Shown in pieces: positions 257 to 47,747 of a stretch of 49,654 nucleotides of DNA (its first letter is position 1; each line of letters begins with the position of its first letter). A program made the translations under genes and the position numbers. The notes beneath the pieces are model-generated. The model was not told where the DNA came from. It saw nothing but the letters and a program-made list of their open reading frames with translations, and did no database searches. This stretch comes from Oscillospiraceae bacterium (GTDB lineage Bacteria; Bacillota; Clostridia; Oscillospirales; Acutalibacteraceae), in assembly GCA_015066575.1 (NCBI GenBank), contig SVOD01000002.1:1-49654 (forward strand), read 5' to 3'.

Positions 257-319
257 TATTTTGATTGTGAGTAAAAATAATCTAATAGCATCAATAGACA
301 TAATGTGGAGAATAATAAC

Positions 320-1831: not shown

Positions 1832-2997
1832 CAGAACAATGCAAGTTAGAACTTTTAGAGCGCTACCCCACTCCCTTTTATGTGTTTGACAGTGAGGTGC
1901 TGCGCGCGCGGGTGCAATTTTTAAAAGAACATTTACCCGCAGGAATTGAGCTGTGCTACGCTGTTAAAGCCAACACATTTATTTCTCCGTATATTGCGGA
2001 TTTAATCGACCGCTATGAAGTCTGCTCCCCCGGCGAACTTGCCATTTGCACCGAGCAGGCAATCGCGCCCGAAAAGCTGGTGATTTCCGGTGTTTACAAA
2101 ACGCCCGAATTAATCGAGGGGCACATTTGTTCCGACAACTGTGCCGGTCACTACACCGCCGAAAGTTTAGAGCAATTCACACTCTTAAAACAGGCGACGG
2201 TCACCTCCGGTAAAAAAATTAACATTTTATTGCGCTTAACTTCAGGCAACCAATTCGGTATGAACGAAGAGGATATTAAAGAAATTATCCGCACCGAAAA
2301 AGACAATGAGGCTTTTGAACTGTGCGGCATTCAATTCTTCTCGGGCACTCAAAAAACTTCCATGAAGAAGTATAAGCGCGAAATTACCCACTTGGGTGAA
2401 TTCTTAAACGAGCTGGAAAACGAACTCGGCTTTGTAAGCAAAGAACTCGAATACGGCACCGGCTTCCCGGTATATTATTTTGCCGATAGTAAGCCGTTTG
2501 ATGAAGCTGCATTTTTGGCGGAATTTAATGAGATTTTAGCTACTCTCGGCTACGATTGCCACATCAGCTTGGAGTTAGGCAGAAGTATCGCCGCTTCCTG
2601 CGGCTCCTACTTTACCAAAGCCGTTGACAGCAAGATGAATCACGGTGAGCGCTATGCGATTATGGACGGCGGCATTCACCACATTGCTTACTTCGGGCAA
2701 TTTATGGCGATGAAGCGCCCCTACTTTGACCTGCTTCCGCACCGCGAGGGTGAGCCGGAAGAGTGGAACCTCTGCGGTTCGCTGTGCACGGTCAACGACC
2801 TGCTGGTAAAAGGGTTGCCGCTTGCCGATTTCAAAATCGGCGATGTCATTGAATTTCAAAACGCAGGCGCCTACTGCCCGACCGAAGGCATTTCCCTTTT
2901 CTTAAGCCGCGCGCTGCCCGGTGTTCTTATCCTGGAAGAGGGCGGCAAGGTTACAAAGCTCAGGGGCGCTGCCGAAACCTATAAGTTTAATTACTAA
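1828..2997 (+). CDS. Fold-type III PLP-dependent decarboxylase (Orn/DAP/Arg decarboxylase family 2, LysA-like)
   Basis: The start overlaps the upstream stop (ATGA at 1828-1831). The N-terminus reads YPTPFYVFD...ELCYAVKANTF, which includes the PLP-lysine motif YAxKAN. The C-terminus has LCGSLCTVNDLL, matching the GxxCxxxD active-site Cys motif of DAP/ornithine decarboxylases. Confidence 0.85.
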   Translation: MTEQCKLELLERYPTPFYVFDSEVLRARVQFLKEHLPAGIELCYAVKANTFISPYIADLIDRYEVCSPGELAICTEQAIAPEKLVISGVYKTPELIEGHICSDNCAGHYTAESLEQFTLLKQATVTSGKKINILLRLTSGNQFGMNEEDIKEIIRTEKDNEAFELCGIQFFSGTQKTSMKKYKREITHLGEFLNELENELGFVSKELEYGTGFPVYYFADSKPFDEAAFLAEFNEILATLGYDCHISLELGRSIAASCGSYFTKAVDSKMNHGERYAIMDGGIHHIAYFGQFMAMKRPYFDLLPHREGEPEEWNLCGSLCTVNDLLVKGLPLADFKIGDVIEFQNAGAYCPTEGISLFLSRALPGVLILEEGGKVTKLRGAAETYKFNY

Positions 2998-3070
2998 AAC
3001 AGCACTTTTCCATTCGATATTATACATCAAGTATGTTCCGAAAAATATATAAACAACTAAGCGAGGAAAC

Positions 3071-4672
3071 ATGAGTTCTTATATATCAATAACATATTTA
3101 CTTATCTTCCTGCCCATCGTGGCACTGGTCTTCACAGTGGTGCCGCGAAAGGCAAAACCGTTTGTTCTGCTGGCAGCAAGCCTGGTGTTTATGTACCTGT
3201 GCAGCCATTTTTGGATTGTGTATTGGGTCTTTACCACCGTGAGCATCTTTGTCTCGGCTCTCTTGGTCGAAAAATCCAAGAAAAAATGCAAAGAGGCGTT
3301 GCCTGCCGCAGAAAACAGAGAACAAAAGAAAGCCATCAAAAAAAGCTTTGCGCGCAAGCAACTGCTGTTGGTGACGCTCATTATCGTTGCCAATATCGGT
3401 CTTTTGGCTGTGCTGCGCTATTCACAGTTTTTCGTTGCCAACTTCAATAAGGTACTGCAACTGTGCGGCAGTGATTTCCAATTTGCACTGCCGAAGTTTG
3501 CCGCTTGTATCGGTATTTCCTTCTACACCCTGCAGGCGGTTTCCTATATTCACGATGTCTATAAAGACAAGATTCAAGCCGACCATAATTTCGGCAGGCT
3601 GGCTCTGTATATGAGTTTCTTCCCGATTATTATGGAAGGCCCCATCTGCCGATACAGTGACACTGCCGAAAAATTATGGAGCGGCGAGAGAATTACTTAT
3701 AAAAATTTCACCTTCGGTATGCAGCGCATGGCGTTCGGTATTTTAAAGAAAGTGGTGGTTGCCGACCGCTTAAATGTTATTGTCACTTCCATTTTCAGAG
3801 AGTACCAATACTGCGATTATGACGGCGGCATTATTTTCCTCGGCGCCGTACTGTATACGATTGAATTGTATATGGAATTTTCCGGTACGATTGATGTGGT
3901 CATCGGCAGCGGCGAAATCTTCGGCGTAACCATTCCCGAAAACTTCCGTCAGCCTTTCTTCTCCAAGAGCATTACCGAATTTTGGCAACGCTGGCACATT
4001 ACGCTGGGTACCTGGTTCAGAGATTATATCTTCTACCCCGTGACCATGAGCAAGCCCATGAAAAAGCTGACCAAGAGCGCCCGCAAAAAACTCGGCAGAA
4101 ACTACGGACCGATGCCGGCAAGCATTTTTGCCTTCGGTTGCGTGTGGCTGTGCAACGGCTTGTGGCACGGTGCCGGTTGGGAGTTCATCTTCTTTGGCTT
4201 CTACCACTTTGTGCTCATTTCTCTGGGCAGTTTGATTTTACCCGTTTCCACCAGACTGTTTGAAAAGTGGCATTTTGACCGCAACAAATTGCCCTACCGC
4301 ATCTTCACCATAGTGCGCACGGCGATTTTGGTCTGCATCGGCGAAATGTTCTTTAACTCCAGAGGCTTAAGCGAAGGAATGAAAATGTTTAAGGTGCTTG
4401 TCACCAAATTCACCTTCAAATCCTTCTTTAACGGCGCGATTTTCACCATGGGTATCGACCGCTTCGATTACATCATTGTGCTCGTGGTGATTCTCTTGGT
4501 ATTCGCTGTCGGTTTGATGAAAGAAAAGGGCATTTCCCCGCGCGAGTGGATTGCGCAAAGAAATGTGGTTATTCGCTGGAGCATTTTCTTTGCAATGATT
4601 CTTTTCATTGTCATATTCGGCGCTTACGGCACGGGTTATATTCCGATTGACCCGATTTATGCGAATTTCTAA
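3071..4672 (+). CDS. MBOAT-family membrane O-acyltransferase (DltB/AlgI-like), paralog 1
   Basis: The 533-aa product is polytopic and hydrophobic. It carries the MBOAT catalytic-His block FWQRWHITLGTWFRDYIFYPV. RBS GAGG lies upstream of the ATG. Confidence 0.9.
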   Translation: MSSYISITYLLIFLPIVALVFTVVPRKAKPFVLLAASLVFMYLCSHFWIVYWVFTTVSIFVSALLVEKSKKKCKEALPAAENREQKKAIKKSFARKQLLLVTLIIVANIGLLAVLRYSQFFVANFNKVLQLCGSDFQFALPKFAACIGISFYTLQAVSYIHDVYKDKIQADHNFGRLALYMSFFPIIMEGPICRYSDTAEKLWSGERITYKNFTFGMQRMAFGILKKVVVADRLNVIVTSIFREYQYCDYDGGIIFLGAVLYTIELYMEFSGTIDVVIGSGEIFGVTIPENFRQPFFSKSITEFWQRWHITLGTWFRDYIFYPVTMSKPMKKLTKSARKKLGRNYGPMPASIFAFGCVWLCNGLWHGAGWEFIFFGFYHFVLISLGSLILPVSTRLFEKWHFDRNKLPYRIFTIVRTAILVCIGEMFFNSRGLSEGMKMFKVLVTKFTFKSFFNGAIFTMGIDRFDYIIVLVVILLVFAVGLMKEKGISPREWIAQRNVVIRWSIFFAMILFIVIFGAYGTGYIPIDPIYANF

Positions 4673-4684
4673 GGGGGTGCCGCA

Positions 4685-5662
4685 ATGAAAAAGATTTTTA
4701 GTAAAGACAATATCAAAAAGTTCCTTGCCTGTGTGCTCTTTATCGCCATCGGCGTCGGTTTATTAGGCGGTGCTTCCTACCTCTTTACACCGGAACGCTT
4801 TCACACCGATACGGTCAAGGATGTAAAACCTTACGGTCTGCTCGCCGAACCCGAGAATACGATGGATGCCATCATCTACGGCGACAGTGAAGCGTTTTCC
4901 GCCTTTTCCCCCGTGCAGATGTGGGAAGAGCACGGCTTTACCTGCTATGTGTGCTCCAGTGCCTCGCAGTACATCTCGTTAACCGAGAGCTTTGTGCGCC
5001 AAACTTTGGAACACCAACAGCCGCAAGTCGTCTTTTTGGAAACGAATGCCATTTACAGAAAGATGAATTCGGATGACCCGGGGCTCAACCAAATCGAAAA
5101 AACCTTGCCTGTCTTTAAATACCACAATCTGTGGAAAAACATTGACCCCGCCGGCATCAACGAAAATGAAAACGATTACTGCTGGCAGGATGATTTAAAA
5201 GGCTTTAAGTATATTGACATCATCAACAAGTCCTCCCATCCGGACTATATGAAGAAAACCAAACAATATAAAAAAGTGCCCGGTTCCAACCTGCAGCATG
5301 TACAAAACATTTACGACATCTGCCGGCAAAAAGGCGTGGAGCTGGTGCTGGTGAGTGCGCCGAGTACGGTCAACTGGAACTATGCCAAGCACAATATGAT
5401 GGTCAAACTCTCCAAACAGTTAGGTGTTAAGTACATCGACCTAAACCTGGAAAAGAGCATCGGCTTGGATTGGAACCACGATACCTGTGACCGCGGCGAC
5501 CATGTCAATTACTACGGCGCGACCAAGGTCACTAAATTCTTCGGTAACTACGCCGCCGAAACCTTCTCGCTGCCCGACCACCGCGGCGACCCCGCCTACA
5601 AAGACTGGGCACAGTTGAAGGTGAAGTATGAAGAAGTTATCGCCAGAAGCAAAACCAAGTAA
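4685..5662 (+). CDS. Membrane-anchored SGNH/DltD-like extracytoplasmic protein, paralog 1
   Basis: It has a single N-terminal TM helix (FLACVLFIAIGVGLLGG). IIYGDSEAFSAFSP resembles GDS block I, and the C-terminal DRGDHVNYYG resembles the D-x-x-H block V. The RBS is AGGGGG. It follows an MBOAT gene, as DltD and AlgJ/X partners do. Confidence 0.7.
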   Translation: MKKIFSKDNIKKFLACVLFIAIGVGLLGGASYLFTPERFHTDTVKDVKPYGLLAEPENTMDAIIYGDSEAFSAFSPVQMWEEHGFTCYVCSSASQYISLTESFVRQTLEHQQPQVVFLETNAIYRKMNSDDPGLNQIEKTLPVFKYHNLWKNIDPAGINENENDYCWQDDLKGFKYIDIINKSSHPDYMKKTKQYKKVPGSNLQHVQNIYDICRQKGVELVLVSAPSTVNWNYAKHNMMVKLSKQLGVKYIDLNLEKSIGLDWNHDTCDRGDHVNYYGATKVTKFFGNYAAETFSLPDHRGDPAYKDWAQLKVKYEEVIARSKTK

Positions 5663-5711
5663 ACAAAGCGGGTTCCCCGCTGACAAATAAATGATTTAAG
5701 GAGAAAACATT

Positions 5712-5939
5712 ATGGACAGATTAATTGAAATTTTGGAAGACATTCAGCCCGATGCGGATTATGAAACCTGCACCACTTTGATTGACGACCACATTTTAGG
5801 TTCACTTCAAATCATCTCGCTCGTTGCGGAAATCGAAGATGAATTTGACATCACCATCCCCACCGTGGAAATCAAGCCCGAAAACTTTAACTCTGCCAAA
5901 AGCCTGATGGCAATGATTGAAAGATTAGAAGACGAATAA
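5712..5939 (+). CDS. Small acyl/aminoacyl carrier protein (DltC-like)
   Basis: The product is 75 aa and acidic, with a helical carrier-protein pattern ...DDHILGSLQIISLVAEIEDEFDI... Ser31 is the candidate phosphopantetheine site. RBS AAGGAG sits 8 nt upstream. The gene lies between dlt-type genes. Confidence 0.75.
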   Translation: MDRLIEILEDIQPDADYETCTTLIDDHILGSLQIISLVAEIEDEFDITIPTVEIKPENFNSAKSLMAMIERLEDE

Positions 5940-5955
5940 GAATTAACCCCTGCCT

Positions 5956-7563
5956 ATGCAAATTACATCTTATATATCTGTAGCCTATCTCGCAGTCTTT
6001 TTGCCTGCGGCATTACTCTTATATACGATTGTGCCAAAAAAGGTAAGACCCTTTGTATTATTAGCTGCCGGTTTTACCTTTTTTTGGTTTATCAGCGAGT
6101 TCCTCATCGCCTACCTTTTGGTATCCATCCTCAGCATTTATCTGATTGGTCTGTGGCTGGAGCAGCTCAAAGGTAAGCGCGCCGCCGCACTGTCTGCGGC
6201 AAGCGATAAAGAAGAAAAAAAGCGCATCAAAAAGCAAAGCCAAACGCGGCAACTGCTGGTGGTGCTGTTGGGCGTACTTATCAACATCGGCATTCTTGCC
6301 GTGCTCAAGTATTCCCCCTTCTTCTTTACCAATGTCAATTTGATTTTACGCCTGACGCATGCCAAGGTCGGCGTGGAAGTGCCGCAGTTTTTAACACCCA
6401 TCGGCATTTCATTCTACTCGTTGCAAGCCGTTTCCTACCTGCACGATGTATATAAAGACAAAATAAAAGCCGACCGCAATCTCGCGCGCGTCGCACTGTT
6501 TATGTCGTTCTTCCCTGTTATAATGGAAGGGCCTATTTGCCGCTATAGCGATACTGCCGATGCACTCTATTCCGGCGAAAGACTGCATTACAAAAACCTT
6601 ACCTTCGGCGCGCAGCGCATCGCTTTCGGCATCTTTAAAAAGATTGTCATTGCCGACAGGCTTAACATCTTTGTGACTACCATTTTTAAAGACTACGAAG
6701 CCTTTGATTATGACGGCGGGTTAATTTTGCTCGGCGCTATCTTTTATACGATTGAGTTGTATATGGAATTTTCCGGCACGATTGATGTGGTTATCGGTAG
6801 CGGCGAAATGTTCGGTGTGCGCGTGCCCGAAAACTTCCGCCAGCCGTTTTTCTCCAAAAGCATTACCGAATTTTGGCAACGCTGGCACATCACGCTGGGC
6901 ACCTGGTTTAGAGATTATATCTTCTACCCCGTGACCATGAGCAAGCCCATGAAAAAGTTGACCAAAAGCGCCCGCAAAACGCTTGGTCGGCACTACGGAC
7001 CGATGCCGGCAAGTATTATTGCGTTTTTCTGCGTTTGGTTCTGTAACGGTTTGTGGCACGGCGCCGGTTGGCAGTTCATCCTGTTCGGGATGTATCACTT
7101 TGTGCTCATTTCCCTGGGCAGTTTAATTCTGCCGCTCTCCAATCTCGTGTTGGGCAAACTCAAAATTGACCGCAATAAATTCCCGTATAAACTCTTTACG
7201 ATTCTGCGCACCGCTTTGCTGGTGAGCATCGGCGAAATGTTTTTCAACTCGCGCGGTTTTCACGACAGCATCCATATGCTCAAGCGCATCCTGACAACCT
7301 TCACCTTTAAATCATGGTTTGACGGCTCTGTTTTCAGTTTGGGATTAGACCCCTATGATGTGCTGATTTTAGTCATCGCCATCGCTGTGGTCTTTACTAT
7401 CGGCATCATCAAAGAAAAAGGCAAGTCGCCGCGCGAATGTATTGGCGCAAAACCGATTTTCGTGCGCTGGCCGATTTATATTGCACTGGTCGTAAGTATC
7501 ATTGTGTTCGGTGCCTACGGCGCGGGTTACATTCCGATTGACCCGATTTATGCCAATTTCTAA
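5956..7563 (+). CDS. MBOAT-family membrane O-acyltransferase (DltB/AlgI-like), paralog 2
   Basis: The 535-aa product is colinear with 3071-4672, at roughly two-thirds identity by eye, and has the identical FWQRWHITLGTWFRDYIFYPVTMSKPMKKLTKSARK block. Confidence 0.9.
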   Translation: MQITSYISVAYLAVFLPAALLLYTIVPKKVRPFVLLAAGFTFFWFISEFLIAYLLVSILSIYLIGLWLEQLKGKRAAALSAASDKEEKKRIKKQSQTRQLLVVLLGVLINIGILAVLKYSPFFFTNVNLILRLTHAKVGVEVPQFLTPIGISFYSLQAVSYLHDVYKDKIKADRNLARVALFMSFFPVIMEGPICRYSDTADALYSGERLHYKNLTFGAQRIAFGIFKKIVIADRLNIFVTTIFKDYEAFDYDGGLILLGAIFYTIELYMEFSGTIDVVIGSGEMFGVRVPENFRQPFFSKSITEFWQRWHITLGTWFRDYIFYPVTMSKPMKKLTKSARKTLGRHYGPMPASIIAFFCVWFCNGLWHGAGWQFILFGMYHFVLISLGSLILPLSNLVLGKLKIDRNKFPYKLFTILRTALLVSIGEMFFNSRGFHDSIHMLKRILTTFTFKSWFDGSVFSLGLDPYDVLILVIAIAVVFTIGIIKEKGKSPRECIGAKPIFVRWPIYIALVVSIIVFGAYGAGYIPIDPIYANF

Positions 7564-7575
7564 GGAGGTGAAGAA

Positions 7576-8544
7576 ATGGATAAAATAGATAAAAAACTCG
7601 CGATTAAAAAAATCATCGGCGCTGTTATTTTTATTCTTCTGTTAGCGCTGGTTCTGCTTATCATTTCCTATTTCTTTGCCCCGCAAAAGGACAAAAGCAT
7701 TACAATGCAGGATGTCAAGCCCAACGGTATTTTGGCAGAAAAAGACCAAACCATTGATGTGATTTTATTCGGCGACAGTGAAGCCTACACCGCATTCTCC
7801 CCCATCCAAATGTGGCGGGATAACGGGTTTCCTTCCTTTGTGTGCGCAAGTTCCTCACAGTATGTTTCCCTTACGGAGAGTTTTGTGCACCAGGCACTTG
7901 AGCACCAAACGCCCAAAGTCGTGATTCTTGAAACCAACGCTTTTTACAGAAAAATGCGTTCGGATAATGCGTTCATAACACGCGTCGAGAATATGTTTTC
8001 CGTTTTGCAGTACCATAACCGCTGGAAAACGCTTTGCCCGCTGAAGTTGGATAAAAATGTCAACTATAATTGGAAAGACGATATGAAAGGCTATAAATAT
8101 GCCAAGCTTTCCACCAAGGGCAATAATAAAGAATATATGATTAAGACCGACGAGATTGAGCCCATCCCCGAAACAAACGCACGCTATGTGGGGCAAATTG
8201 CGGACTACTGCCGCAAAAAAGGGGTGAAGGTACTTTTGGTGAGCACACCCAGCTCCAAAAACTGGAACTACAAGCGGCATAACGCGGTTGCTGCCCTTGC
8301 CCAAAAAATCGGCACCGAGTATTTGGATTTAAACCTGCAAAAAGAAATCCAAATTGATTGGCATACCGACACGGCGGATGCCGGCGACCACTTGAATTTC
8401 CGCGGCACCAAAAAGGTCTGCGCCTTCTTGGGTGATTATTTGGCAAAAACATACCACCTCGCGGATAAGCGGAACGACCCCGCCTACCAAGAGTGGAATG
8501 ACTTAATCACAAAATATGAATATTTAACAGCAGAAAACAAATAA
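7576..8544 (+). CDS. Membrane-anchored SGNH/DltD-like extracytoplasmic protein, paralog 2
   Basis: The 322-aa product is colinear with 4685-5662 (ILFGDSEAYTAFSP; DAGDHLNFRG). The RBS is AGGAGG. The TAA stop lies inside the first hairpin of the downstream repeat element. Confidence 0.7.
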   Translation: MDKIDKKLAIKKIIGAVIFILLLALVLLIISYFFAPQKDKSITMQDVKPNGILAEKDQTIDVILFGDSEAYTAFSPIQMWRDNGFPSFVCASSSQYVSLTESFVHQALEHQTPKVVILETNAFYRKMRSDNAFITRVENMFSVLQYHNRWKTLCPLKLDKNVNYNWKDDMKGYKYAKLSTKGNNKEYMIKTDEIEPIPETNARYVGQIADYCRKKGVKVLLVSTPSSKNWNYKRHNAVAALAQKIGTEYLDLNLQKEIQIDWHTDTADAGDHLNFRGTKKVCAFLGDYLAKTYHLADKRNDPAYQEWNDLITKYEYLTAENK

Positions 8545-15164: not shown

Positions 15165-15169
15165 GTTGA

Positions 15170-15202
15170 AAATAAAAGCAAGCCGCCTGTTGCGACTTGC
15201 TT
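15170..15202 (-). terminator. Rho-independent terminator after the riboswitch-controlled two-gene operon
   Basis: The minus-strand RNA reads aagcaag-(12 nt)-cttgctt followed by UUUUAUUUU. It lies 50 nt downstream of the stop at 15254. Confidence 0.55.
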
Positions 15203-15253
15203 TTTTAAAGGGGGCGTAAAGAAGACTTACTTCCTTACAATAAGGTAATTTCT

Positions 15254-16288
15254 TTATTTTGTTTTCTTGCGAGTAGCCACCACTACACCCAGTGCAAGTA
15301 CCGCCACAGCGGCAATGCCGCAAGCGGCAAAGCTGTCGCCGGTAGCGGGGGTAGACTGCTGCGCGCTGCTGTCGGCAGCAGTGGTCGCCTGTGTGGTAGC
15401 ATCCTCGGAAGAGGTGGTCGTTTCGGGTTGCGGCTCATCTTGAGAAATTATGTTGTAATAAATCAGCGCTTTCAAAGCGTCTCTGGTCGCATAATTGTCT
15501 GCCGTACCGCCGAGGGCATAGGCAAAACCGCCGTTTTCGGCTGTAAAATTATCCACCAACAAAGCGTAAACCTCATCGGCTTTATCCTGATTTTCCAAAA
15601 TCGAATACATAAACAAAGCGGAAGCGGTGGAGTTACCGTTAGCATCGGTGCCGTATTCTGCCAAATAATAATAACCCTTATCGGTCTTGGCTTTTTCCAC
15701 CACATTGACCGCATCTGCCACCAATTCGTCGTCCGTGCTCATTGCGGCAAAATTAGCAGAGTTATCACTGCCGAAGCCCCAATAATCGTAGCCTGAACCT
15801 TGCGTGTAGTTCGCTTTGAGTTCCTCTTGAATTTGCTCCAAATAAGTACTGTCCTCCGCAAAAGCAATCACAAAGAAGTAATTATAGGGTGAATCCGCCG
15901 TTAAACCCGCATCGACTATTTTTTGCTCTAAGTCAATTTTGCTGTGGTCGTTGAGTTCAAATGCATTCACATCAACGTCCAGCTCTTTCAGACATAAACC
16001 TGCCAAAGCAATTCTGTCTGCCGTGTTCATACTTCCGGCTTCAAAAGCATCTTTGACACTTTGGATATAGGCGTCTTTAAAATCGGCGCCGTCACCACCT
16101 GCTAAAAGGTAGAGCAGGAAATCTAAACTTTCTGCGGCGGTAAACTCTGTTTTTTCGCCGTAGAGATAGTCTCTCGCTGCTTCCATTTTTGCTTTGACTT
16201 CATCGCTCTTCTCGCCTGCGAATGCCGCCATGGGCAGCAGGCTGATAATCAGAAGCACGCTGATGATAATCGCAACTGTTTTTTTCAT
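15254..16288 (-). CDS. Secreted, cell-wall-anchored all-helical repeat protein (prenyltransferase/terpene-cyclase-like alpha-toroid; candidate transcobalamin alpha-domain analog)
   Basis: The product is 344 aa with signal peptide MKKTVAIIISVLLIISLLPMAAFA. It has helical repeats with ..NGNSTASALFMY.. and ..GGFAYALGGTADNYATRDALKAL.. patterns. The C-terminus has TPATGD, a hydrophobic helix and RKKTK, which looks like a sortase-type sorting signal. Confidence 0.55.
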   Translation of the reverse strand: MKKTVAIIISVLLIISLLPMAAFAGEKSDEVKAKMEAARDYLYGEKTEFTAAESLDFLLYLLAGGDGADFKDAYIQSVKDAFEAGSMNTADRIALAGLCLKELDVDVNAFELNDHSKIDLEQKIVDAGLTADSPYNYFFVIAFAEDSTYLEQIQEELKANYTQGSGYDYWGFGSDNSANFAAMSTDDELVADAVNVVEKAKTDKGYYYLAEYGTDANGNSTASALFMYSILENQDKADEVYALLVDNFTAENGGFAYALGGTADNYATRDALKALIYYNIISQDEPQPETTTSSEDATTQATTAADSSAQQSTPATGDSFAACGIAAVAVLALGVVVATRKKTK

Positions 16289-16305
16289 GTTTGTTCCTCC
16301 TTAAG

Positions 16306-16983
16306 TTATGCTTTATAAATGAATTCTATATAATCCCCATCCGAAAGCGCATATTTATCGCACGCTTTCGGCGGATATTTCCCGTTTACGGTGTAGGTCC
16401 AACCGCTTGTCTTGCCGGTTTCTTTTTCGGCAAGACCGCCGATAGAGCTGACATACATGCCGTACATTGTTTGGCTTGCCACCATGTCAACACCGTTGGC
16501 ATCACAACATTTAACCAGCGCCTCATAGGCATTCGCCCCGTTACGGACACTCACTCCCGCCCCTTTCAGGAAATAGCCGGATTTGGGGAGCCCTTCCACC
16601 TTACCGACTGCCTGCGAGCAATCAATCGTAAAACTGACTGCCAGCGTTTGTTTTTTGCTTGTGGGCTGTTTGGTTTTCGGCTGCTTGGTGGTTGCCGGTG
16701 CCTTGGTGGTGGCTTTTTTGCCGGCAGCAGTGGTTTTTTGCTTTGCCGCAGCAGTGGTTTTTCCTGCGGCTGTGGTTTTCTTTTTCGCGGCAGCGGTTTT
16801 TTTATCACCCTTTTTTGCAGTGGTATCTTCTTTGCTCTTTCCCGCGGCAGCGGTGCTGCTCTGCACCTGACTTTGCGCGGCAGTGGTGCCGGCATCGCTT
16901 TGATTGCCCGCCTGTTTGGAACAGGCGCAAATGCTGCCCGCAATCAGCAAAGCCAAAAAGATACTAAAGCCTTTTTTGAACAT
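16306..16983 (-). CDS. DUF4430-domain lipoprotein-like protein with K/T/A-rich linker
   Basis: The 225-aa product starts MFKKGFSIFLALLIAGSICAC (signal peptide with Cys). It has a long (TTAAGK)-like low-complexity linker. The C-terminal domain reads ...GMYVSSIGGLAEKETGKTSGWTYTVNGKYPPKACDKYALSDGDYIEFIY, matching the DUF4430 signature SGW.Y.VNG...Y.L.DGD.I.F.Y. Confidence 0.75.
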   Translation of the reverse strand: MFKKGFSIFLALLIAGSICACSKQAGNQSDAGTTAAQSQVQSSTAAAGKSKEDTTAKKGDKKTAAAKKKTTAAGKTTAAAKQKTTAAGKKATTKAPATTKQPKTKQPTSKKQTLAVSFTIDCSQAVGKVEGLPKSGYFLKGAGVSVRNGANAYEALVKCCDANGVDMVASQTMYGMYVSSIGGLAEKETGKTSGWTYTVNGKYPPKACDKYALSDGDYIEFIYKA

Positions 16984-17009
16984 AAAAAAACCTCGCTCTC
17001 AGAGCAAGG
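16984..17009 (-). promoter_or_regulatory. Riboswitch expression platform: terminator / SD-sequestering hairpin
   Basis: The minus-strand RNA is CCUUGCU-CUGAG-AGCGAGG followed by U7 and then AUG directly. The GAGG Shine-Dalgarno sequence is inside the 3' half of the stem. Confidence 0.6.
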
Positions 17010-17089
17010 ATACACAAAGAAGGCGAACCGAATCGCCGTTGTTACTCTTTATCATTGCCCTAAAGAATATACAGTACCACCCAACAATA

Positions 17090-17262
17090 GTCGGGCAAAA
17101 CTACGGCTCGTCTCCTGACTTATGAAGGGAAAACATTCAAACTTTTCCCCGAGGTGCCTTCTTTTGCAATGGCAAACCCTCTTTACTCAAATACAGTAAT
17201 GGCGATTGTGCGAGATTCTCACTCGCTTCCGATTTACACTTTTGTTACAAAGCCACCATAGT
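17090..17262 (-). promoter_or_regulatory. Cobalamin (B12) riboswitch aptamer
   Basis: The minus-strand RNA reads UAUGGUGGC...AAAUCGGAAGCGAGUGAGAAUCUCGCACAAUCGCCAUUACUGUA...AAGUCAGGAGACGAGCCGUAG. It matches the conserved GGAAGC / GUGAGAAUC / CGCCA-UACUGUA core and the B12 box AGYCMGGAGACCKGCC, which here reads AGUCAGGAGACGAGCC. Confidence 0.75.
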
Positions 17263-17284
17263 TCATTCAATTTTTAACAAAAAC

Positions 17285-17313
17285 ATTATAGCACTAACTT
17301 TTGAACTTGTCAA
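17285..17313 (-). promoter_or_regulatory. Consensus sigma-70 promoter for the riboswitch operon
   Basis: On the minus strand, TTGACA (17313-17308), a 17-nt spacer and TATAAT (17290-17285) lie ~20 nt upstream of the aptamer 5' end. Confidence 0.7.
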
Positions 17314-17374
17314 CAGATAAGAACCTGCCGCAAGCGGCAGAACCTTGGCGTTCGCAATCTGCGATTGCTCGGCT

Positions 17375-17562
17375 AAAGGATTTGTTGCGCTAATGTTCAG
17401 CAGTCGGCAGCCGGCAGTCGGCAGCCAGTCAAGGGCGGGACACCCGCACCCGATTTATATGCGTTGCGTAGCAACGCCACCATTCGCTAACTGCTAACCG
17501 CTAACCGCTGACTGCATAAATAAGGAATTGCGCGCTCTCCGAGAGCGCAATTCCTTATTTAT
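17375..17562. repeat. Composite palindromic intergenic element, copy C
   Basis: Left arm: cagcagtcggcagccggcagtcggcagccagtc (17398-17430). Core hairpin: gggcgggacacccgcacccgat (17433-17454). Inner hairpin: gcgttgc-gta-gcaacgc. Right arm: cattcgctaactgctaaccgctaaccgctgactgc (17481-17515). The ~22-bp outer hairpin ataaataaggaattgcgcgctct...agagcgcaattccttatttat (17516-17562) contains the cysK stop. Confidence 0.85.
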
Positions 17563-25369: not shown

Positions 25370-25546
25370 ATGGATATTCAAGTCGGTCAAATTATCAAAA
25401 CCAGGAAGCCGCACCCCTGTTCGGGCGATGAATGGGAAGTGCTGCGCGTCGGGATGGATTTCAAACTCAAGTGCCTCACCTGCGGCAGAGAAGTCATGGT
25501 CCCGCGCAAAAAGGCGGAAAAATCCATCAAACAAATCATAAAGTAG
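25370..25546 (+). CDS. DUF951-family small protein (58 aa; not in the supplied ORF track)
   Basis: My own translation is [58 protein letters not shown]. It matches the HPCG..W...R.G.D...KC..CG..VM.PR pattern I recall for DUF951, a family that commonly precedes translation genes in Firmicutes. Confidence 0.7.
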
Positions 25547-25557
25547 GTACAGCACAG

Positions 25558-26637
25558 ATGTTAGATAAATTAGAAGGCATTTACAGCCGCTTCCAAACCG
25601 TAACCGAGCAGCTTTGCTCTCCCGAAGTGGTTTCCGATATGGAAAAATACACTTCGCTGATGAAAGAGCAAAAGAAGCTCGAACCGATTGTTGAAAAATA
25701 CAAGGAATTAAAAACCGCCACCGCGAATGCCGCCGAAGCGGAACAGCTGCTTGAAGAAGGCGGTTCGGATAAAGAGCTCAAAGAGCTCGCCGTGGAGGAA
25801 CTCAAGCAGGCAAAGGAACAAATTGAAACCTGCACGGAGGAGTTGAAAATTCTCCTGCTCCCCCGCGACCCGAATGATGATAAAAACGTCATTGTCGAAA
25901 TCCGCGGTGGTGCCGGCGGTGAAGAAAGCGCGCTTTTTGCAGGCACGCTTTACAGAATGTATACCATGTACGCCGAGTCCAAAGGATTTAAGCACGAAGT
26001 GCTTTCGGCGCAGGAAACCGGGCTTGGCGGCTTTAAAGAAATCTCCTTTTCCATTTCGGGCGACGGCGCCTATTCCCGCTTCAAGTTTGAAAGCGGCGTA
26101 CACCGCGTACAGCGCGTGCCGGAAACCGAAAGCCAGGGGCGCATCCACACCTCGACCTCTACCGTAGCGGTTCTTCCCGAAGCGGAGGAAGTCGATATTG
26201 ATATCAACCCGACCGATTTGCAGATTGATACCTTCCGCTCCAGCGGTGCCGGCGGGCAACACATCAACAAAACCGAAAGTGCGATTCGTATCACCCACAT
26301 CCCGACCGGTACGGTCGTAGAATGTCAGGACGAACGCAGCCAACATAAAAACAAAGATAAGGCGATGAAAATTCTGCGCTCGCGCATTTTGGAAAAAGAG
26401 CGCGAAAAGCAAAACGCGGAAATCGCCGGCGACCGCAAAGCGCAGGTCGGCACCGGCAACCGCAATGAGCGTATCCGAACCTATAACTACCCGCAGGGCA
26501 GAGTCAGTGACCACCGCATCGGCTTAACGCTCTATAAATTAGAGCAGATTTTAAACGGTGATTTGGATGAACTCATTGACGCTTTGATTACCGCGGATAC
26601 CGCAGAAAAACTTCGCGCCAGCGAATCAGAAACATAA
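25558..26637 (+). CDS. prfA: Peptide chain release factor 1
   Basis: The start MLDKLEGIY... is at 25558. The supplied ORF start at 25432 overlaps DUF951 in another frame. The GGQ motif [14 protein letters not shown] and the RF1 tripeptide region [14 protein letters not shown] are present. Confidence 0.93.
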
Positions 26638-26653
26638 AGGAATTCTCATATCC

Positions 26654-28948
26654 ATGAACACAAAGGTTTTTACCAAAAATGAATTACGGGAAGCCGCTGC
26701 CATCATCAGAGAAGGCGGCGTGGTCGCGATGCCTACCGAAACGGTCTACGGTCTTGCCGCAAACGCGTTAGATACCGAAGCGGTCAAGAAGATTTACGAA
26801 GCAAAGGGCAGGCAGAGCGACAATCCGCTGATTGTGCATATTGCCAATATCTCCGACTGGGGCAAGCTGGTCGAGCAGATTCCGCAAAACGCCAAGCTCT
26901 TAGCTGAGCGTTTTTGGCCGGGTCCGCTGACCATTGTGCTCAAAAAGAGCCCTCTGGTGCCCGACATTGTCAGCGGCGGGTTAGATACCGTGGCAGTCAG
27001 AATGCCAAAAAACAAGATTGCTTTCCGATTCATTAAAGAGTGCGGGGTGCCGCTCGCCGCGCCGAGTGCCAATATTTCCGGTGCACCCAGCCCCACCAGG
27101 TTTTCCCATGTTTTTCAGGATATGAACGGTAAAATTGATGGGATTATAGACGGCGGCGACTGCATGGTCGGTTTGGAATCGACTGTCATTTCCCTGGTCG
27201 AAGATATCCCGACCATTTTGCGGCCGGGCAGAATTACTGCCGAGCAAATCCGCAAAGTCATCGGTGAGGTCACCATTCACCACACGGCGACCGGTGAACT
27301 GGCAGCGGGTGAAAAGCCCCTGTCACCGGGCATGAAATATAAGCACTACGCACCGCGCGCCGCGCTGCAATTGGTTAAAGGCAGCGACACCGATTATATT
27401 ACTTATATCAAAGAGCACGCAGCAGAGAATACCGCCGTGATTTGTTTCAACGAAGACTTGAATGCGCTTACCGACTACAACACCTTCTCTTTGGGTGCCA
27501 AGCTCGATAGTGTTACCCACGCAAAGCGCCTGTTTGATATTCTCAGAGCCATCGATGATAAGGGGCTGACAGAAGCCTTTGCCCCGCTGGCACAAAACAA
27601 CGGTGTGGGGTTGGCGGTCAATAACCGCCTGCTGCGCGCTGCCGGCTTCAATATCATTGACTTAACACTTGTTTCTTCCACCGATACCGCGCAAGACTCA
27701 CAACAGGGTGCACAGGACACGGCAGACAATATAAACCCGGTTGATTTAAAGGAACTCGGCGACAACAAAATTGAAACCGCCGCTTCTGCCGACACGCAGG
27801 AGGATACAGGGGTGCAAAAAGCACCGCAGCCTGCGCAACAAAGTGAAACCGCCGCCGCGAAAGCACCGGAAGAGGCTCCTGAACAGGCACAGAACACGAC
27901 TCCCGCGCCTCAAAGCGAAAGCAGCGAAAACGACACACCGGATGACCCGCTCGCCGTAACACTCGGCACAATGGAAGAGGACTCGGCGATTTTGGCGCTT
28001 AACGATATCCGTTTCGGTGAAGATTTCAACGAAGATTTCAGCAAAGCCATTAGCGATAATATCACCGTAGTCGAAAAGACCGAAGAAGACGACCCCACAA
28101 AAATCTTCTATGAAGCCCTCATTGATGAGGACGGTATTAAACCTGCCGCTTACCCGGTTGATACCATCGATGAAGACTTCCAATTCGATGTCTACGACGA
28201 TGATATCCCGAAAAGAAAAGGCTTGTTTTCTCGCATTTTCGGCAAAAAAGAAGAGGAAGAAGACATCGAACCCGAACCCTTCCTGCCGCTGCCGAATGCC
28301 CGATGGAATTCCCAAGCCGCTCTTCAAGAAGACGGTGGCGCACACGAACCTGCAACCCCCGCCGAAAAGGCAGATAGAATCGGGGGCGAGAAGTATGAGA
28401 AAATTCCCGGCATTCGTGTTGTCGGTATCACCGGTAAAAGCGGTTGCGGCAAAACCTATATTGCTAACCGCTTGGCCACCAAGACACCCAACAGCATTGT
28501 AATCAACGCCGATGATGTCTACCACTCTATGTTGAACAGCGACAGCTTGGTGCTGAGCATCGTCGTCGCATTCGGCGACGAGGTTTTGGACGGAAAAACC
28601 ATCAACCGCAAAAAATTAGCTTCGCTTGCCTTTAGCAGCGAAGAGAATTTAAATAAGCTGAACCGCACAGTATTGCCGGCGGTAGCGCAAAAAATCATTT
28701 CTTTGATTGAGCACGCCAAGGCAAGCGGTGTCAAAACTGTCTTTTTGGATGCGCCCACACTCATTGAAAGCGGGCTTAATCAAGTGTGTAATGAAGTAAT
28801 TTTCATTATCGCCGACCCGGCAATCCGCCAGGAGCGCATTGTGGAAAGAGATAATATTACGCTCGATGAAATCGGTCAAAGAATGCGCTTTGAGAAGGAT
28901 GATACCTTCTATGTGCGCTATGCCGACAGAATTATTCGCAACAATTAA
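26654..28948 (+). CDS. Fusion protein: L-threonylcarbamoyladenylate synthase (Sua5/TsaC, YrdC + Sua5 domains), ~220-aa acidic linker, dephospho-CoA kinase (CoaE)
   Basis: The N-terminus has AMPTETVYGLAANAL and KGRQSDNPLIVHI (YrdC), then ESTVISL...ILRPGRIT...PGMKYKHYAPRA (Sua5 C-domain). Residues ~345-570 are D/E/Q/T/P-rich low complexity. The C-terminus has VVGITGKSGCGKTYIANRL (P-loop) and ...INADDVYHSML..., which are CoaE-like. It is a single uninterrupted 764-codon ORF. Confidence 0.8.
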   Translation: MNTKVFTKNELREAAAIIREGGVVAMPTETVYGLAANALDTEAVKKIYEAKGRQSDNPLIVHIANISDWGKLVEQIPQNAKLLAERFWPGPLTIVLKKSPLVPDIVSGGLDTVAVRMPKNKIAFRFIKECGVPLAAPSANISGAPSPTRFSHVFQDMNGKIDGIIDGGDCMVGLESTVISLVEDIPTILRPGRITAEQIRKVIGEVTIHHTATGELAAGEKPLSPGMKYKHYAPRAALQLVKGSDTDYITYIKEHAAENTAVICFNEDLNALTDYNTFSLGAKLDSVTHAKRLFDILRAIDDKGLTEAFAPLAQNNGVGLAVNNRLLRAAGFNIIDLTLVSSTDTAQDSQQGAQDTADNINPVDLKELGDNKIETAASADTQEDTGVQKAPQPAQQSETAAAKAPEEAPEQAQNTTPAPQSESSENDTPDDPLAVTLGTMEEDSAILALNDIRFGEDFNEDFSKAISDNITVVEKTEEDDPTKIFYEALIDEDGIKPAAYPVDTIDEDFQFDVYDDDIPKRKGLFSRIFGKKEEEEDIEPEPFLPLPNARWNSQAALQEDGGAHEPATPAEKADRIGGEKYEKIPGIRVVGITGKSGCGKTYIANRLATKTPNSIVINADDVYHSMLNSDSLVLSIVVAFGDEVLDGKTINRKKLASLAFSSEENLNKLNRTVLPAVAQKIISLIEHAKASGVKTVFLDAPTLIESGLNQVCNEVIFIIADPAIRQERIVERDNITLDEIGQRMRFEKDDTFYVRYADRIIRNN

Positions 28949-32302: not shown

Positions 32303-32384
32303 ACATTCATCTCCTTTGTGATATACTCTAACACTATCATAATACATATCTGCTTTTTGCGCAAACATTTTTTTGAGTTTATAG

Positions 32385-32446
32385 ATAAAAAATAGGTAAA
32401 AACCGAAATTTCAAAATTACTTTTGGAACTTGGGTTTTTACCTATT
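32385..32446 (-). terminator. Terminator-like long hairpin between the 1696-aa gene and the 635-aa gene
   Basis: The minus-strand RNA has a perfect 14-bp stem AAUAGGUAAAAACC...(28 nt)...GGUUUUUACCUAUU followed by UUUU. Confidence 0.5.
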
Positions 32447-32709
32447 TCTTTTGCTTATGGGCAATGCTTTGCACAATTCAAAAGTGCACTTTTCAGCTTT
32501 CTCGTTTTCCCGGCAGGCGTCATGGTAGCTGTTTGCCTGTTGGCGGAAAACTTAAAGCACTGCCTGTATTGTTGCACCGCCGCCTGTTGCGGGCGGTGCC
32601 CCCGCAAACGAACTCTCGGTGCGGGAGCGGTCAACTCCCGCACCTATAATGGAGTTCATTTAAGGTCTGTTACCGCTTTTTAAAAACGGTAAAAGTTTTA
32701 CTTGAAGAG

Positions 32710-37800: not shown

Positions 37801-37904
37801 AAATTTACCTCCATGAAATATTTTATATACATAATCTTCAAGATTTGCATTTTTTGATCATCTGCTACCAATATTGACTCAAAAAGTGCATGCTTTCGGA
37901 TTAG

Positions 37905-39050: not shown

Positions 39051-39069
39051 ACTGTATTCACCTGAAAAA

Positions 39070-40215: not shown

Positions 40216-40272
40216 TAATATTTGTTTCTTATTAATTACTGACCTTATTAATATTTAATAACATTAATAACC

Positions 40273-47717: not shown

Positions 47718-47747
47718 CTCATTCGAAATATATTCCGAGGTATGGTT

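What the first reader, a model, noticed from the sequence alone, without database searches (positions are those of the whole stretch)
15254..17313. Cobalamin-riboswitch-controlled two-gene operon resembling a split, surface-displayed transcobalamin
Seen: a consensus promoter (TTGACA-17-TATAAT) precedes a cobalamin riboswitch core with a B12 box. An SD-sequestering terminator hairpin abuts the ATG at 16983. The first gene encodes a lipoprotein-like protein with a long K/T/A-rich (TTAAGK)n spacer and a C-terminal DUF4430 domain. The second encodes a 344-aa secreted all-helical repeat protein with a PATGD-type wall-sorting signal. No transporter gene belongs to the operon. Established: eukaryotic transcobalamin, intrinsic factor and haptocorrin bind B12 between an alpha6/alpha6 barrel and a small beta domain. 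To my recollection that beta domain is the homolog of bacterial DUF4430. Inference: the two products could form a heterodimeric cell-surface corrinoid-capture device, with one component lipid-anchored on a long tether and the other wall-anchored, repressed when B12 is replete. This would be a Gram-positive counterpart of Bacteroides surface B12 scavengers (BtuG-type) built from different folds.
Basis: partly seen in the sequence, partly recalled or inferred. Interest (0 to 1): 0.68.

Follow-up and report, generated by a model that had tools for sequence, protein, structure and literature searches.

The report
B12-switched two-part surface vitamin catcher
An uncultured gut Clostridium carries a vitamin-B12-sensing RNA switch that controls two cell-surface proteins resembling the two halves of the animal B12 carrier transcobalamin; this was predicted on paper for Gram-positive bacteria years ago but has never been tested.

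Summary
That covers the perfect promoter, an RF00174 cobalamin riboswitch (64.8 bits) and a terminator that also buries the ribosome-binding site. It also covers a DUF4430 lipoprotein with a long K/T/A-rich tether and a 344-aa secreted helical protein ending in TPATGD, a hydrophobic stretch and RKK. The second protein has no Pfam family. AlphaFold models it confidently as a 12-helix alpha/alpha toroid.

Profile comparison links the DUF4430 domain to the transcobalamin beta domain (95%). It links the toroid more weakly to the alpha domain (71.5%, well above controls).

The toroid family has 276 clusters at 50% identity. In 15 of 19 assessable, distinct loci a cobalamin riboswitch precedes it. 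In 13 of 20 a DUF4430 gene lies beside it. None carries a transporter gene.

The best reading is a B12-repressed, cell-surface corrinoid-capture pair. Binding and heterodimer formation are untested, and some relatives are riboswitch-controlled without a DUF4430 partner.

The idea is not new. Burroughs et al. (2007) predicted it, and Verplaetse et al. (2019) proposed a split alpha/beta pair in Lactobacillus sakei. I rate it a new variant of a known, still uncharacterised kind.

The parts
17285..17313 (-). Sigma-70-type promoter TTGACA-17-TATAAT with an extended -10 TG
   Evidence: It matches 12 of 12 positions. It is conserved in the leaders of five relatives (alignment A8).
17088..17275 (-). 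Cobalamin riboswitch aptamer (RF00174) with B12 box
   Evidence: cmscan gives 64.8 bits against a gathering score of 31.5, E 7.4e-14, covering model positions 1-189.
17040..17073 (-). Conserved hairpin of the expression platform. Its loop AGGGCAAUGA is the proposed anti-terminator strand and kissing-loop partner.
   Evidence: The hairpin appears in the minimum-free-energy fold. GGGCAA is invariant in six leaders. The loop is the best complement in the leader to the terminator 5' arm (-11.6 kcal/mol) and is also complementary to aptamer CAUUGC at about 17172. The switching model itself is inference.
16984..17009 (-). Intrinsic terminator (8-bp stem, U7) whose 3' arm contains the GAGG Shine-Dalgarno sequence of gene A
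   Evidence: Found by the terminator scan and the fold. L008 and L004 carry compensatory stem changes.
16306..16983 (-). Gene A: a lipoprotein with a signal peptide and lipobox, a 90-aa K/A/T-rich tether and a C-terminal DUF4430/SLBB domain (the transcobalamin beta-domain homologue)
   Evidence: PF14478 matches at E 1.2e-18. hhalign against the TC/HC/IF beta domains gives 95%, E 3.7e-8. The lipobox is conserved in all 10 partner genes examined.
15254..16288 (-). Gene B: a secreted 12-helix alpha/alpha toroid (residues about 30-282), an acidic T/S-rich stalk, and a TPATGD sorting signal followed by a hydrophobic stretch and RKKTK
   Evidence: The AF2 model has core pLDDT above 94. The Foldseek hits are toroids. 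The family has 276 clusters. The [ST]PxTG signal is conserved. hhalign against the TC alpha domain gives 71.5%.
15168..15204 (-). Intrinsic terminator that closes the two-gene operon
   Evidence: A 13-bp hairpin is followed by a U-rich run; the fold z-score is -6.3.

Best explanation
This is a self-contained two-gene operon, switched off by B12, that puts a corrinoid-capture device on the surface of a Gram-positive cell.

Regulation. When a corrinoid binds the RF00174 aptamer, the conserved loop AGGGCAAUGA is held away from the terminator, probably by a kissing loop with the aptamer. The terminator then forms. It stops transcription and also buries the ribosome-binding site of gene A. When B12 is scarce, that loop pairs with the 5' arm of the terminator and both genes are expressed.

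Products. Gene A makes a membrane-anchored lipoprotein. Its DUF4430/SLBB domain is the homologue of the transcobalamin beta domain, and it sits on a flexible tether of about 90 residues, long enough to cross the cell wall. Gene B makes an alpha/alpha toroid, the fold of the transcobalamin alpha domain. A sortase attaches it to peptidoglycan through its TPATGD signal.

Proposed action. The two proteins bind corrinoids from the gut fluid, most likely by sandwiching one molecule between them as transcobalamin does. They then pass it to a B12 importer encoded elsewhere in the genome.

Shown here: the riboswitch, the regulatory hairpins, both protein folds or domains, the anchoring signals, and the conserved linkage across relatives. 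Inferred: corrinoid binding, heterodimer formation, the hand-off to a transporter, and the details of the RNA switch.
For: 1. B12 control.
- The window has RF00174 at 64.8 bits.
- A riboswitch at or above the gathering score precedes the toroid gene, or the DUF4430-toroid pair, in 15 of 19 assessable distinct loci of the family. Two further loci score just below it: L017 at 29.0 bits and L035 at 35.9 bits for AdoCbl.
- These relatives go down to about 28% identity and sit among unrelated neighbours.

2. Linkage of the two genes.
- A DUF4430 gene lies next to the toroid gene in 13 of 20 distinct loci, in the order riboswitch, DUF4430, toroid in 11 of them.
- The outgroup toroid P0176 (Pfam Prenyltrans/SQHop type) is hit by the family profile at E 5e-18 and lies between two DUF4430 genes.

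3. Resemblance to transcobalamin.
- DUF4430 against the TC/HC/IF beta domains: hhalign 95%, E 3.7e-8.
- The toroid family against the alpha domains: hhalign score 42.3, 71.5%, over 172 columns. A reversed control scored 16.5 and 30 column shuffles reached at most 20.2.
- The family-invariant residues D175 and T221 and the near-invariant N217 and S220 align with TC D176, T228, N224 and S227, of which D176, S227 and T228 are invariant in TC/HC/IF.
- AF2 gives a 12-helix toroid, and rat transcobalamin 8ixu is among the top Foldseek hits.

4. Surface location.
- All 10 partner genes examined have a lipobox, and all 11 paired toroids have a PxTG motif followed by a hydrophobic stretch and a basic tail.
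- 25 of 65 family members match Pfam Gram_pos_anchor.

5. RNA mechanism. The terminator shows compensatory stem changes, and the anti-terminator complementarity is the best in the leader.

6. Literature.
- SLBB-toroid fusions occur in animals and bacteria and were predicted to bind B12 jointly (PMC1796856).
- A split alpha/beta pair was modelled in L. sakei (10.1101/864751).
Against: - There are no binding data and no complex model.
- The toroid is not detectably a member of PF01122. The window protein gave no hit, and only 1 of 65 family members hit it, at E 0.022.
- Foldseek scores for transcobalamin are no better than for GH105, farnesyltransferase or terpene cyclases.
- None of the 54 multidomain family members scanned carries a fused DUF4430.
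- Four lineages have a riboswitch-controlled toroid with no DUF4430 gene in the same transcription unit. In L015/L016, L021 and L032 there is none nearby, and in L033 it is divergently transcribed.
- No transporter is linked in any locus, so the delivery step has no genomic support.
Confidence: 0.6

Rival explanations
1. The two proteins each bind corrinoids on their own rather than forming a transcobalamin-like sandwich. They would act in sequence as a relay: the wall-anchored toroid at the outside and the tethered DUF4430 lipoprotein shuttling the ligand to the membrane. This would resemble the BtuG/BtuH/BtuJ relay of Bacteroides.
For: - Solo toroid genes sit directly behind RF00174 in L015/L016, L021 and L032, and in L033 the DUF4430 gene is divergent.
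- Stand-alone DUF4430 proteins exist, for example 3u7z and the fish Tcn-like proteins (PMC4350170).
- The two proteins have different anchors, at different depths of the cell envelope.
- No DUF4430-toroid fusion was found within this toroid family.
Against: - In transcobalamin, intrinsic factor and haptocorrin, neither domain alone forms the full binding site (established knowledge, cited in PMC1796856).
- The tight order of DUF4430 gene then toroid gene in 11 lineages suggests matched amounts and a joint function.
- Solo toroids carry a different C-terminal module, an fn3 domain with no sorting signal, so they may be a functionally distinct subfamily.
Confidence: 0.22
2. The pair binds a different ligand: another tetrapyrrole such as haem, as was proposed for the L. 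sakei Lsa1839/Lsa1840 pair, or a corrinoid precursor or degradation product. Alternatively it is a surface enzyme or adhesin whose expression merely follows B12 status.
For: - The L. sakei transcobalamin-like pair was linked experimentally to haem uptake at the operon level (10.1101/864751).
- The toroid fold is shared with glycoside hydrolases, prenyltransferases and thioester domains.
- Relatives carry fn3, Ig, choline-binding and SLH modules typical of adhesins and surface enzymes.
Against: - Cobalamin riboswitches control B12 synthesis, B12 uptake or B12-independent isozymes (established knowledge). Control of a haem binder would be unprecedented.
- The riboswitch link holds in at least 15 independent lineages.
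- No DxDD or DDxxD catalytic motif is present in the window protein or conserved in the family.
- Neither the window protein nor the 65 family members scanned match any Pfam enzyme family.
Confidence: 0.1
3. The association is incidental. The riboswitch controls only gene A, and gene B is an unrelated wall protein that happens to lie downstream.
For: Gene B has its own strong ribosome-binding site and a 17-nt gap after gene A.
Against: - No promoter or terminator lies between A and B, and a single terminator follows B.
- The pair is conserved across 28-100% identity in different genomic contexts.
- Toroid genes on their own sit directly behind riboswitches.
Confidence: 0.03

Closest known systems
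Bacterial transcobalamin-like SLBB (DUF4430) surface proteins with alpha/alpha toroids, predicted by Burroughs, Balaji, Iyer and Aravind 2007 (PMC1796856)
   Same: Both have a secreted DUF4430/SLBB domain, an association with an alpha/alpha toroid, Gram-positive anchoring signals and a predicted role in scavenging external B12.
   Different: - In that paper the toroid is usually fused to the SLBB domain and the genes usually sit in operons with CbiO/CbiQ-type transporter genes. Here the two domains are separate proteins and no transporter is linked in any locus.
- The toroid here belongs to a family without a Pfam model.
- The paper did not describe riboswitch control or the pairing of a lipoprotein with a sortase substrate.
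- Neither case has been tested experimentally.
Lactobacillus sakei Lsa1839/Lsa1840 (Verplaetse et al. 2019, bioRxiv 10.1101/864751)
   Same: [quoted passage not shown]
   Different: - The L. sakei pair lies inside a five-gene ECF-type transporter operon and was assigned to haem uptake.
- Its alpha-like protein is detectable by HHpred against geranylgeranyltransferase and transcobalamin at E about 1e-21, whereas the window toroid is far more divergent.
- No riboswitch, lipobox or sortase signal was reported there.
- I did not have the L. sakei sequences, so homology to the window proteins was not tested.
Animal transcobalamin, intrinsic factor and haptocorrin (PF01122 plus PF14478)
   Same: The same two folds are present, an alpha6/alpha6 toroid and a beta-grasp SLBB domain. 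The beta domain is homologous (hhalign 95%). The alpha domain aligns over 172 columns, including the invariant D and S-T motifs.
   Different: - The animal proteins are one soluble chain in the order alpha then beta. Here there are two anchored chains encoded in the order beta then alpha.
- The toroid does not reach the PF01122 threshold.
- There is no counterpart of the Co-coordinating His loop that I could verify.
Bacteroides surface cobamide binders BtuG, BtuH and BtuJ (reviewed in PMC13616437)
   Same: Both are surface-exposed, lipid-anchored proteins, and the window pair is proposed to capture corrinoids outside the cell and feed an importer as the Bacteroides proteins do. The window pair is under a B12 riboswitch.
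   Different: The folds are unrelated (a beta-propeller and others), the Bacteroides proteins work in an outer-membrane context with the TonB-dependent transporter BtuB, and their genes are linked to the transporter genes. The resemblance is functional only.

Membership tests
Cobalamin riboswitch (Rfam RF00174) | Covariance-model score at or above the gathering score over the full aptamer, including the B12 box | tested here: met
   The score is 64.8 bits against 31.5, model positions 1-189 are covered, and the B12 box is AAGUCAGGAGACGAGCC.
Cobalamin riboswitch (Rfam RF00174) | An expression platform that turns genes off when ligand is bound | tested here: inconclusive
   A terminator that also sequesters the Shine-Dalgarno sequence is present and shows covariation. 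A plausible anti-terminator and kissing-loop element was found. Ligand-dependent switching was not tested.
DUF4430 / transcobalamin-like SLBB clade (PF14478) | A Pfam HMM match above the curated cut-off | tested here: met
   The score is 67.7 bits against 23.8, E 1.2e-18, over residues 149-224.
DUF4430 / transcobalamin-like SLBB clade (PF14478) | Homology to the beta domain of TC, IF and HC | tested here: met
   hhalign gives 95%, E 3.7e-8 over 82 columns. The two top PDB profile hits are TC beta 5no0 and 3u7z, though weak at E about 0.2.
DUF4430 / transcobalamin-like SLBB clade (PF14478) | A beta-grasp fold with the clade-specific beta-hairpin insert | tested here: inconclusive
   The AF2 model of the domain was of low confidence, pLDDT 40.8 from a three-sequence alignment.
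Eukaryotic cobalamin-binding protein, alpha domain (PF01122) | A Pfam HMM match | tested here: not met
   The window protein gave no hit at E up to 1. Only 1 of 65 family members hit it, at E 0.022.
Eukaryotic cobalamin-binding protein, alpha domain (PF01122) | An alpha6/alpha6 toroid fold | tested here: met
   AF2 gives 12 helices with core pLDDT above 94. The Foldseek hits are toroids, including 8ixu at E 4.3e-3.
Eukaryotic cobalamin-binding protein, alpha domain (PF01122) | Profile-level sequence relatedness | tested here: inconclusive
   hhalign gives 71.5%, score 42.3, against controls of 20.2 or less. Specificity against other toroid families was not calibrated.
Eukaryotic cobalamin-binding protein, alpha domain (PF01122) | Corrinoid bound between the alpha and beta domains | not testable with these tools
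   This needs biochemistry or a multimer prediction.
Prenyltransferase / terpene cyclase toroids (PF00432, PF13243) | A Pfam match and the catalytic DxDD or DDxxD motifs | tested here: not met
   There is no Pfam hit. Neither motif occurs in the window protein, and they appear in only 9 and 11 of 65 family members. The family profile does reach one PF13243 protein, P0176, at E 5e-18, so the relationship is at superfamily level only.
Sortase-anchored wall proteins | A C-terminal xPxTG motif, a hydrophobic stretch and a basic tail | tested here: met
   The window protein ends TPATGD, a hydrophobic stretch of about 21 residues, RKKTK. QSTPATGDS is conserved in the subfamily and [ST]PxTG across the family. 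25 of 65 members match PF00746. The window protein scores 18.3 bits on NCBIfam NPXTG, below the 23.5 cut-off. No sortase gene lies in the window.
Bacterial lipoproteins | A signal peptide ending in a lipobox cysteine | tested here: met
   The window protein has LLIAGSICAC|S. A lipobox is present in all 10 partner genes examined. This is pattern-based only.
Bacteroides BtuG/BtuH/BtuJ | Sequence or fold homology | tested here: not met
   Neither protein hit the corresponding families in Pfam or NCBIfam, and the folds differ.

The most novel reading that the evidence does not exclude
The Pfam-less toroid family, together with its DUF4430 lipoprotein, is a widespread two-chain bacterial transcobalamin of gut and rumen Clostridia. 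One corrinoid would be clamped between a wall-anchored alpha subunit and a membrane-tethered beta subunit. This would be the first extracellular cobamide-capture system defined for Gram-positive bacteria. It would also be a living relative of the unfused ancestor from which animal transcobalamin, intrinsic factor and haptocorrin arose.
Probability: 0.35. Interest if true: 0.75.

Novelty: new variant of a known kind. Interest (0 to 1): 0.55.

Why it matters
Most gut bacteria need corrinoids but cannot make them, and competition for them shapes the community. Surface capture is well worked out in Bacteroides. A 2026 review calls it 'entirely uncharacterized' in Gram-positive Firmicutes (PMC13616437).

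This operon, and the family of at least 276 clusters behind it, gives a compact and directly testable candidate. It has two small secreted proteins, a clear B12 switch and defined anchors. If binding is confirmed, it would put a 2007 prediction on an experimental footing. It would allow hundreds of 'hypothetical' surface proteins to be annotated. It would also bear on the proposed bacterial origin of the animal B12 carriers.

Tried and rejected
- Complex prediction. I built seven natural A/B pairs as toroid-linker-DUF4430 chimeras (A5).
- AF2 of the DUF4430 domain alone gave pLDDT 40.8 and could not be used for a fold search.
- A homologue search with the DUF4430 domain alone returned only 2 proteins. 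The search with the family alignment A3 added only P0170 and P0176.
- Sequence and profile searches of gene B against the PDB found nothing significant. The weak dockerin and Rab hits at E 0.5-1 were taken as chance.
- I looked for a Rosetta-stone fusion of this toroid family with DUF4430. None was found among the 54 multidomain members scanned, which instead carry fn3, Ig, choline-binding or SLH modules.
- The genome scan with the diverse alignment A3 failed because it had no conserved stretch. A1 gave 7 loci and A10 gave 8 metagenome loci.
- I could not retrieve the transcobalamin structure paper. My recollection that TC Asp176 and Asn224 contact cobalamin is therefore unverified and is not used as evidence.
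- The single sequence P0176 against the TC alpha domain was not significant, at 6.7%.
- No DNA tandem repeat underlies the K/T/A linker.
- The 558-aa gene upstream of the pair in L004 is unrelated to the 558-aa gene in L035.
Full report
**1. The observation**

All features below are on the minus strand.

- **Promoter.** A perfect TTGACA-17-TATAAT promoter with an upstream TG lies at 17313-17285.
- **Riboswitch.** It is followed by a full-length RF00174 cobalamin aptamer at 17275-17088. The score is 64.8 bits against a gathering score of 31.5, E 7.4e-14, and the B12 box is intact.
- **Terminator.** An 8-bp G+C-rich hairpin at 17009-16991 is followed by U7 and the ATG at 16983. The 3' arm of the hairpin ends in GAGG, the only Shine-Dalgarno-like sequence before the start codon.
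- **Gene A (16983-16306, 225 aa).** It has a signal peptide with a lipobox (LLIAGSICAC). A 90-residue linker follows, with 21 K, 21 A and 18 T. DUF4430 covers residues 149-224, E 1.2e-18.
- **Gene B (16288-15254, 344 aa).** It starts 17 nt after the stop codon of A and has its own AAGGAGG site. It has a cleavable signal peptide and ends QSTPATGDS, then a hydrophobic stretch, then RKKTK. It matches no Pfam or NCBIfam family and no PDB sequence.
- **End of the operon.** A strong terminator at 15204-15168 closes it.

The rest of the window is housekeeping and cell-surface genes. There is no transporter. The one correction is that '(TTAAGK)n' is an approximate compositional pattern, not a true repeat.

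**2. What gene B is**

The 5.8-billion-protein search found only 24 relatives, all unnamed and mostly from rumen or gut metagenomes. With their alignment, AlphaFold2 gave a confident model. Residues 30-280 have pLDDT above 94 and form twelve helices.

The top Foldseek hits against the PDB are all alpha/alpha toroids. They include GH105, farnesyltransferase beta, terpene cyclases, complement thioester domains and rat transcobalamin 8ixu (rank 7, E 4.3e-3). The toroid fold is established, but Foldseek does not single out transcobalamin.

An exhaustive HMM search found 276 clusters at 50% identity. Two architectures dominate.
- In the first, the toroid is followed by a stalk and an [ST]PxTG sorting signal. 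There are 35 SPxTG, 29 TPxTG and 5 NPxTG cases, and 25 of 65 members match Pfam Gram_pos_anchor.
- In the second, the toroid is followed by a C-terminal fn3 domain, often with extra Ig, choline-binding or SLH modules.

All of these additions are cell-surface modules. None of the 54 multidomain members scanned carries DUF4430. No prenyltransferase or terpene cyclase motif is conserved.

**3. Relation to transcobalamin**

I took the TC, haptocorrin and intrinsic factor sequences from PDB search output and split them into alpha domains (A4) and beta domains (A9).

- **Beta domain.** The DUF4430 domains of gene A and its orthologues match the beta domains at 95% probability, E 3.7e-8. This agrees with Burroughs et al. 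2007 (PMC1796856) and PMC4350170.
- **Alpha domain.** The toroid family profile matches the alpha domains at 71.5%, score 42.3, over 172 columns. A reversed control scored 16.5 and 30 column shuffles scored at most 20.2.
- **Aligned residues.** The alignment pairs the family-invariant residues D175 and T221 and the near-invariant N217 and S220 with TC D176, T228, N224 and S227, of which D176, S227 and T228 are invariant in TC/HC/IF.

I recall that some of these TC residues contact cobalamin, but I could not retrieve the structure paper, so I do not count that.

The family profile also reaches P0176 at E 5e-18. P0176 is a toroid of the Pfam SQHop_cyclase_C/Prenyltrans type with SLH repeats, and its gene lies between two DUF4430 genes. 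The B family is therefore a divergent branch of the bacterial toroids that travel with DUF4430. It is related to the TC alpha domain at superfamily level, but it is not a member of PF01122.

**4. Comparative context**

This is the strongest evidence. I collected 36 loci, which represent about 20 distinct lineages of the family.

| Arrangement | Loci |
|---|---|
| Riboswitch, DUF4430 lipoprotein gene, sortase-type toroid gene | window, L011, L001, L007, L008, L004, L025, L026, L029, L030, L031 (11 lineages) |
| Same pair, but the contig starts inside the DUF4430 gene | L023 |
| Riboswitch directly before the toroid gene, DUF4430 gene divergent | L033 |
| Riboswitch directly before a lone toroid-fn3 gene | L015/L016, L021, L032 |
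| Same lone toroid-fn3 gene, riboswitch just below threshold (29.0 bits against 31.5) | L017 |
| Two tandem toroid genes behind a sub-threshold AdoCbl match | L035 |
| No riboswitch found | L020, L024, and the outgroup L018 |

- The paired lineages go down to 28% identity to the window protein, and some have quite different neighbours.
- RF00174 reaches the gathering score in 15 of 19 assessable lineages.
- A DUF4430 gene lies next to the toroid gene in 13 of 20.
- In the five paired loci where I checked the gene after the toroid, it is on the opposite strand or unrelated, and no locus has a transporter.
- All ten DUF4430 partners examined have lipoboxes. All eleven paired toroids have a PxTG signal, a hydrophobic stretch and a basic tail. 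The lone toroids have the fn3 tail instead.

**5. Regulation**

Six leaders align from the promoter to the start codon.
- The terminator stem shows compensatory changes in L008 and L004.
- Between the aptamer and the terminator lies a conserved hairpin with the invariant loop GGGCAA.
- The segment AGGGCAAUGAUA (17062-17049) is the best complement in the whole leader to the terminator 5' arm, at -11.6 kcal/mol.
- When the terminator 3' arm is left out, the minimum-free-energy fold pairs these two elements.
- The same loop is complementary to CAUUGC in an aptamer loop.

This fits the known kissing-loop logic of cobalamin riboswitches, which I state from general knowledge. Bound ligand holds the loop, the terminator forms and hides the ribosome-binding site, and the genes are off. 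The model is inferred, not shown.

**6. Mechanism and rivals**

My best explanation, at confidence 0.6, is a B12-repressed surface corrinoid-capture pair. A membrane-tethered beta-like subunit and a wall-anchored alpha-like subunit would together bind external corrinoids for an importer encoded elsewhere.

The main rival, at 0.22, is that the two bind independently and act as a relay. The lone riboswitch-controlled toroids favour this.

A different ligand or function has confidence 0.1. The L. sakei precedent for haem supports it, and the pervasive B12 riboswitch argues against it.

Incidental adjacency is effectively excluded.

**7. Prior knowledge and novelty**

- Burroughs et al. 2007 described bacterial transcobalamin-like SLBB proteins with signal peptides and Gram-positive anchors. 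They reported fusion to toroids on either side and a predicted role in B12 scavenging, usually next to CbiO/CbiQ genes.
- Verplaetse et al. 2019 modelled separate beta-like and alpha-like proteins in an ECF operon of L. sakei as a heterodimer, and assigned it to haem.
- I found no experimental study of corrinoid binding by such proteins.
- A 2026 review states that extracellular cobamide capture in Gram-positive bacteria is entirely uncharacterised.

Four things are new here.
- A large toroid family that has no Pfam model.
- Its systematic coupling to RF00174.
- The transporter-free two-gene module.
- The conserved pairing of a lipoprotein with a sortase substrate.

I therefore rate this a new variant of a known, predicted kind, with interest 0.55.

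Noticed in passing
window 30461-44370 (-): This is a cluster of large surface proteins. A 1365-aa protein has a cohesin domain. It and the neighbouring 381-aa protein end in dockerin-like DVDGNGTVTGQDLGIILL segments. A 1696-aa protein with no Pfam hit ends TARTGD, a hydrophobic stretch, then KKRRK. A 400-aa protein ends PAKTGE, a hydrophobic stretch, then KNKKKK. These may be further substrates of the same TG[DE]-recognising sortase.
   Followed up: partly
window 305-8544 (+): An AMP-binding enzyme and a PLP-decarboxylase-like gene are followed by two tandem copies of an MBOAT gene, each paired with a gene of about 325 aa that has no Pfam hit. This looks like a duplicated Dlt-like or O-acylation module for a wall polymer.
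   Followed up: no
window 26654-28948 (+): A single 764-aa ORF combines Sua5/TsaC (residues 1-331), a middle part with no Pfam match, and dephospho-CoA kinase CoaE (589-764). In L004 these are separate genes. It is either a fusion or an assembly read-through.
   Followed up: no
window 17320-17560: The spacer between cysK and the operon promoter holds short direct repeats (GGCAGTCGGCAGCC twice; GCTAAC(C/T) three to four times) and two terminator-like hairpins at 17324-17341 and 17532-17548. Their purpose is unknown.
   Followed up: no
L015/L016 5935-7314, L021 6001-8268, L032 3881-5254, and proteins P0044-P0130: A second architecture of the toroid family ends in an fn3 domain with a strikingly conserved basic tail, KYYVRVRTYK..GKKYYS.WS..K.VKTK, and has no sorting signal. 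These genes are monocistronic behind a cobalamin riboswitch. The tail may be a wall-binding or sorting module of its own.
   Followed up: partly
L035 1258-4194: Two tandem toroid paralogues of 558 and 397 aa, the first ending SPKTGD and the second not checked, lie behind a sub-threshold AdoCbl riboswitch match (35.9 bits against a gathering score of 50).
   Followed up: partly
L024 6001-18081: A 4026-aa LRR surface protein carries the toroid domain at its C-terminus (residues 3703-3991). No riboswitch was found.
   Followed up: no
L018 1822-7689: The outgroup module consists of an 1175-aa protein with two DUF4430 domains and SLH repeats, a Prenyltrans/SQHop-type toroid with SLH repeats, and a 272-aa DUF4430 protein. 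An AraC-family regulator lies upstream and no riboswitch was detected.
   Followed up: partly
window 25432-26637 and 47742-48863 (+): There are two PCRF/RF-1 family release-factor genes in one 50-kb window, presumably prfA and prfB.
   Followed up: no
window linkers: A residues 23-112, B residues 283-312: The tether of A is strongly basic (21 K in 90 residues). The stalk of B is acidic and T/S-rich with no K or R. This charge pairing holds in the close subfamily but not in L004, where the linker of A is acidic and S-rich.
   Followed up: partly
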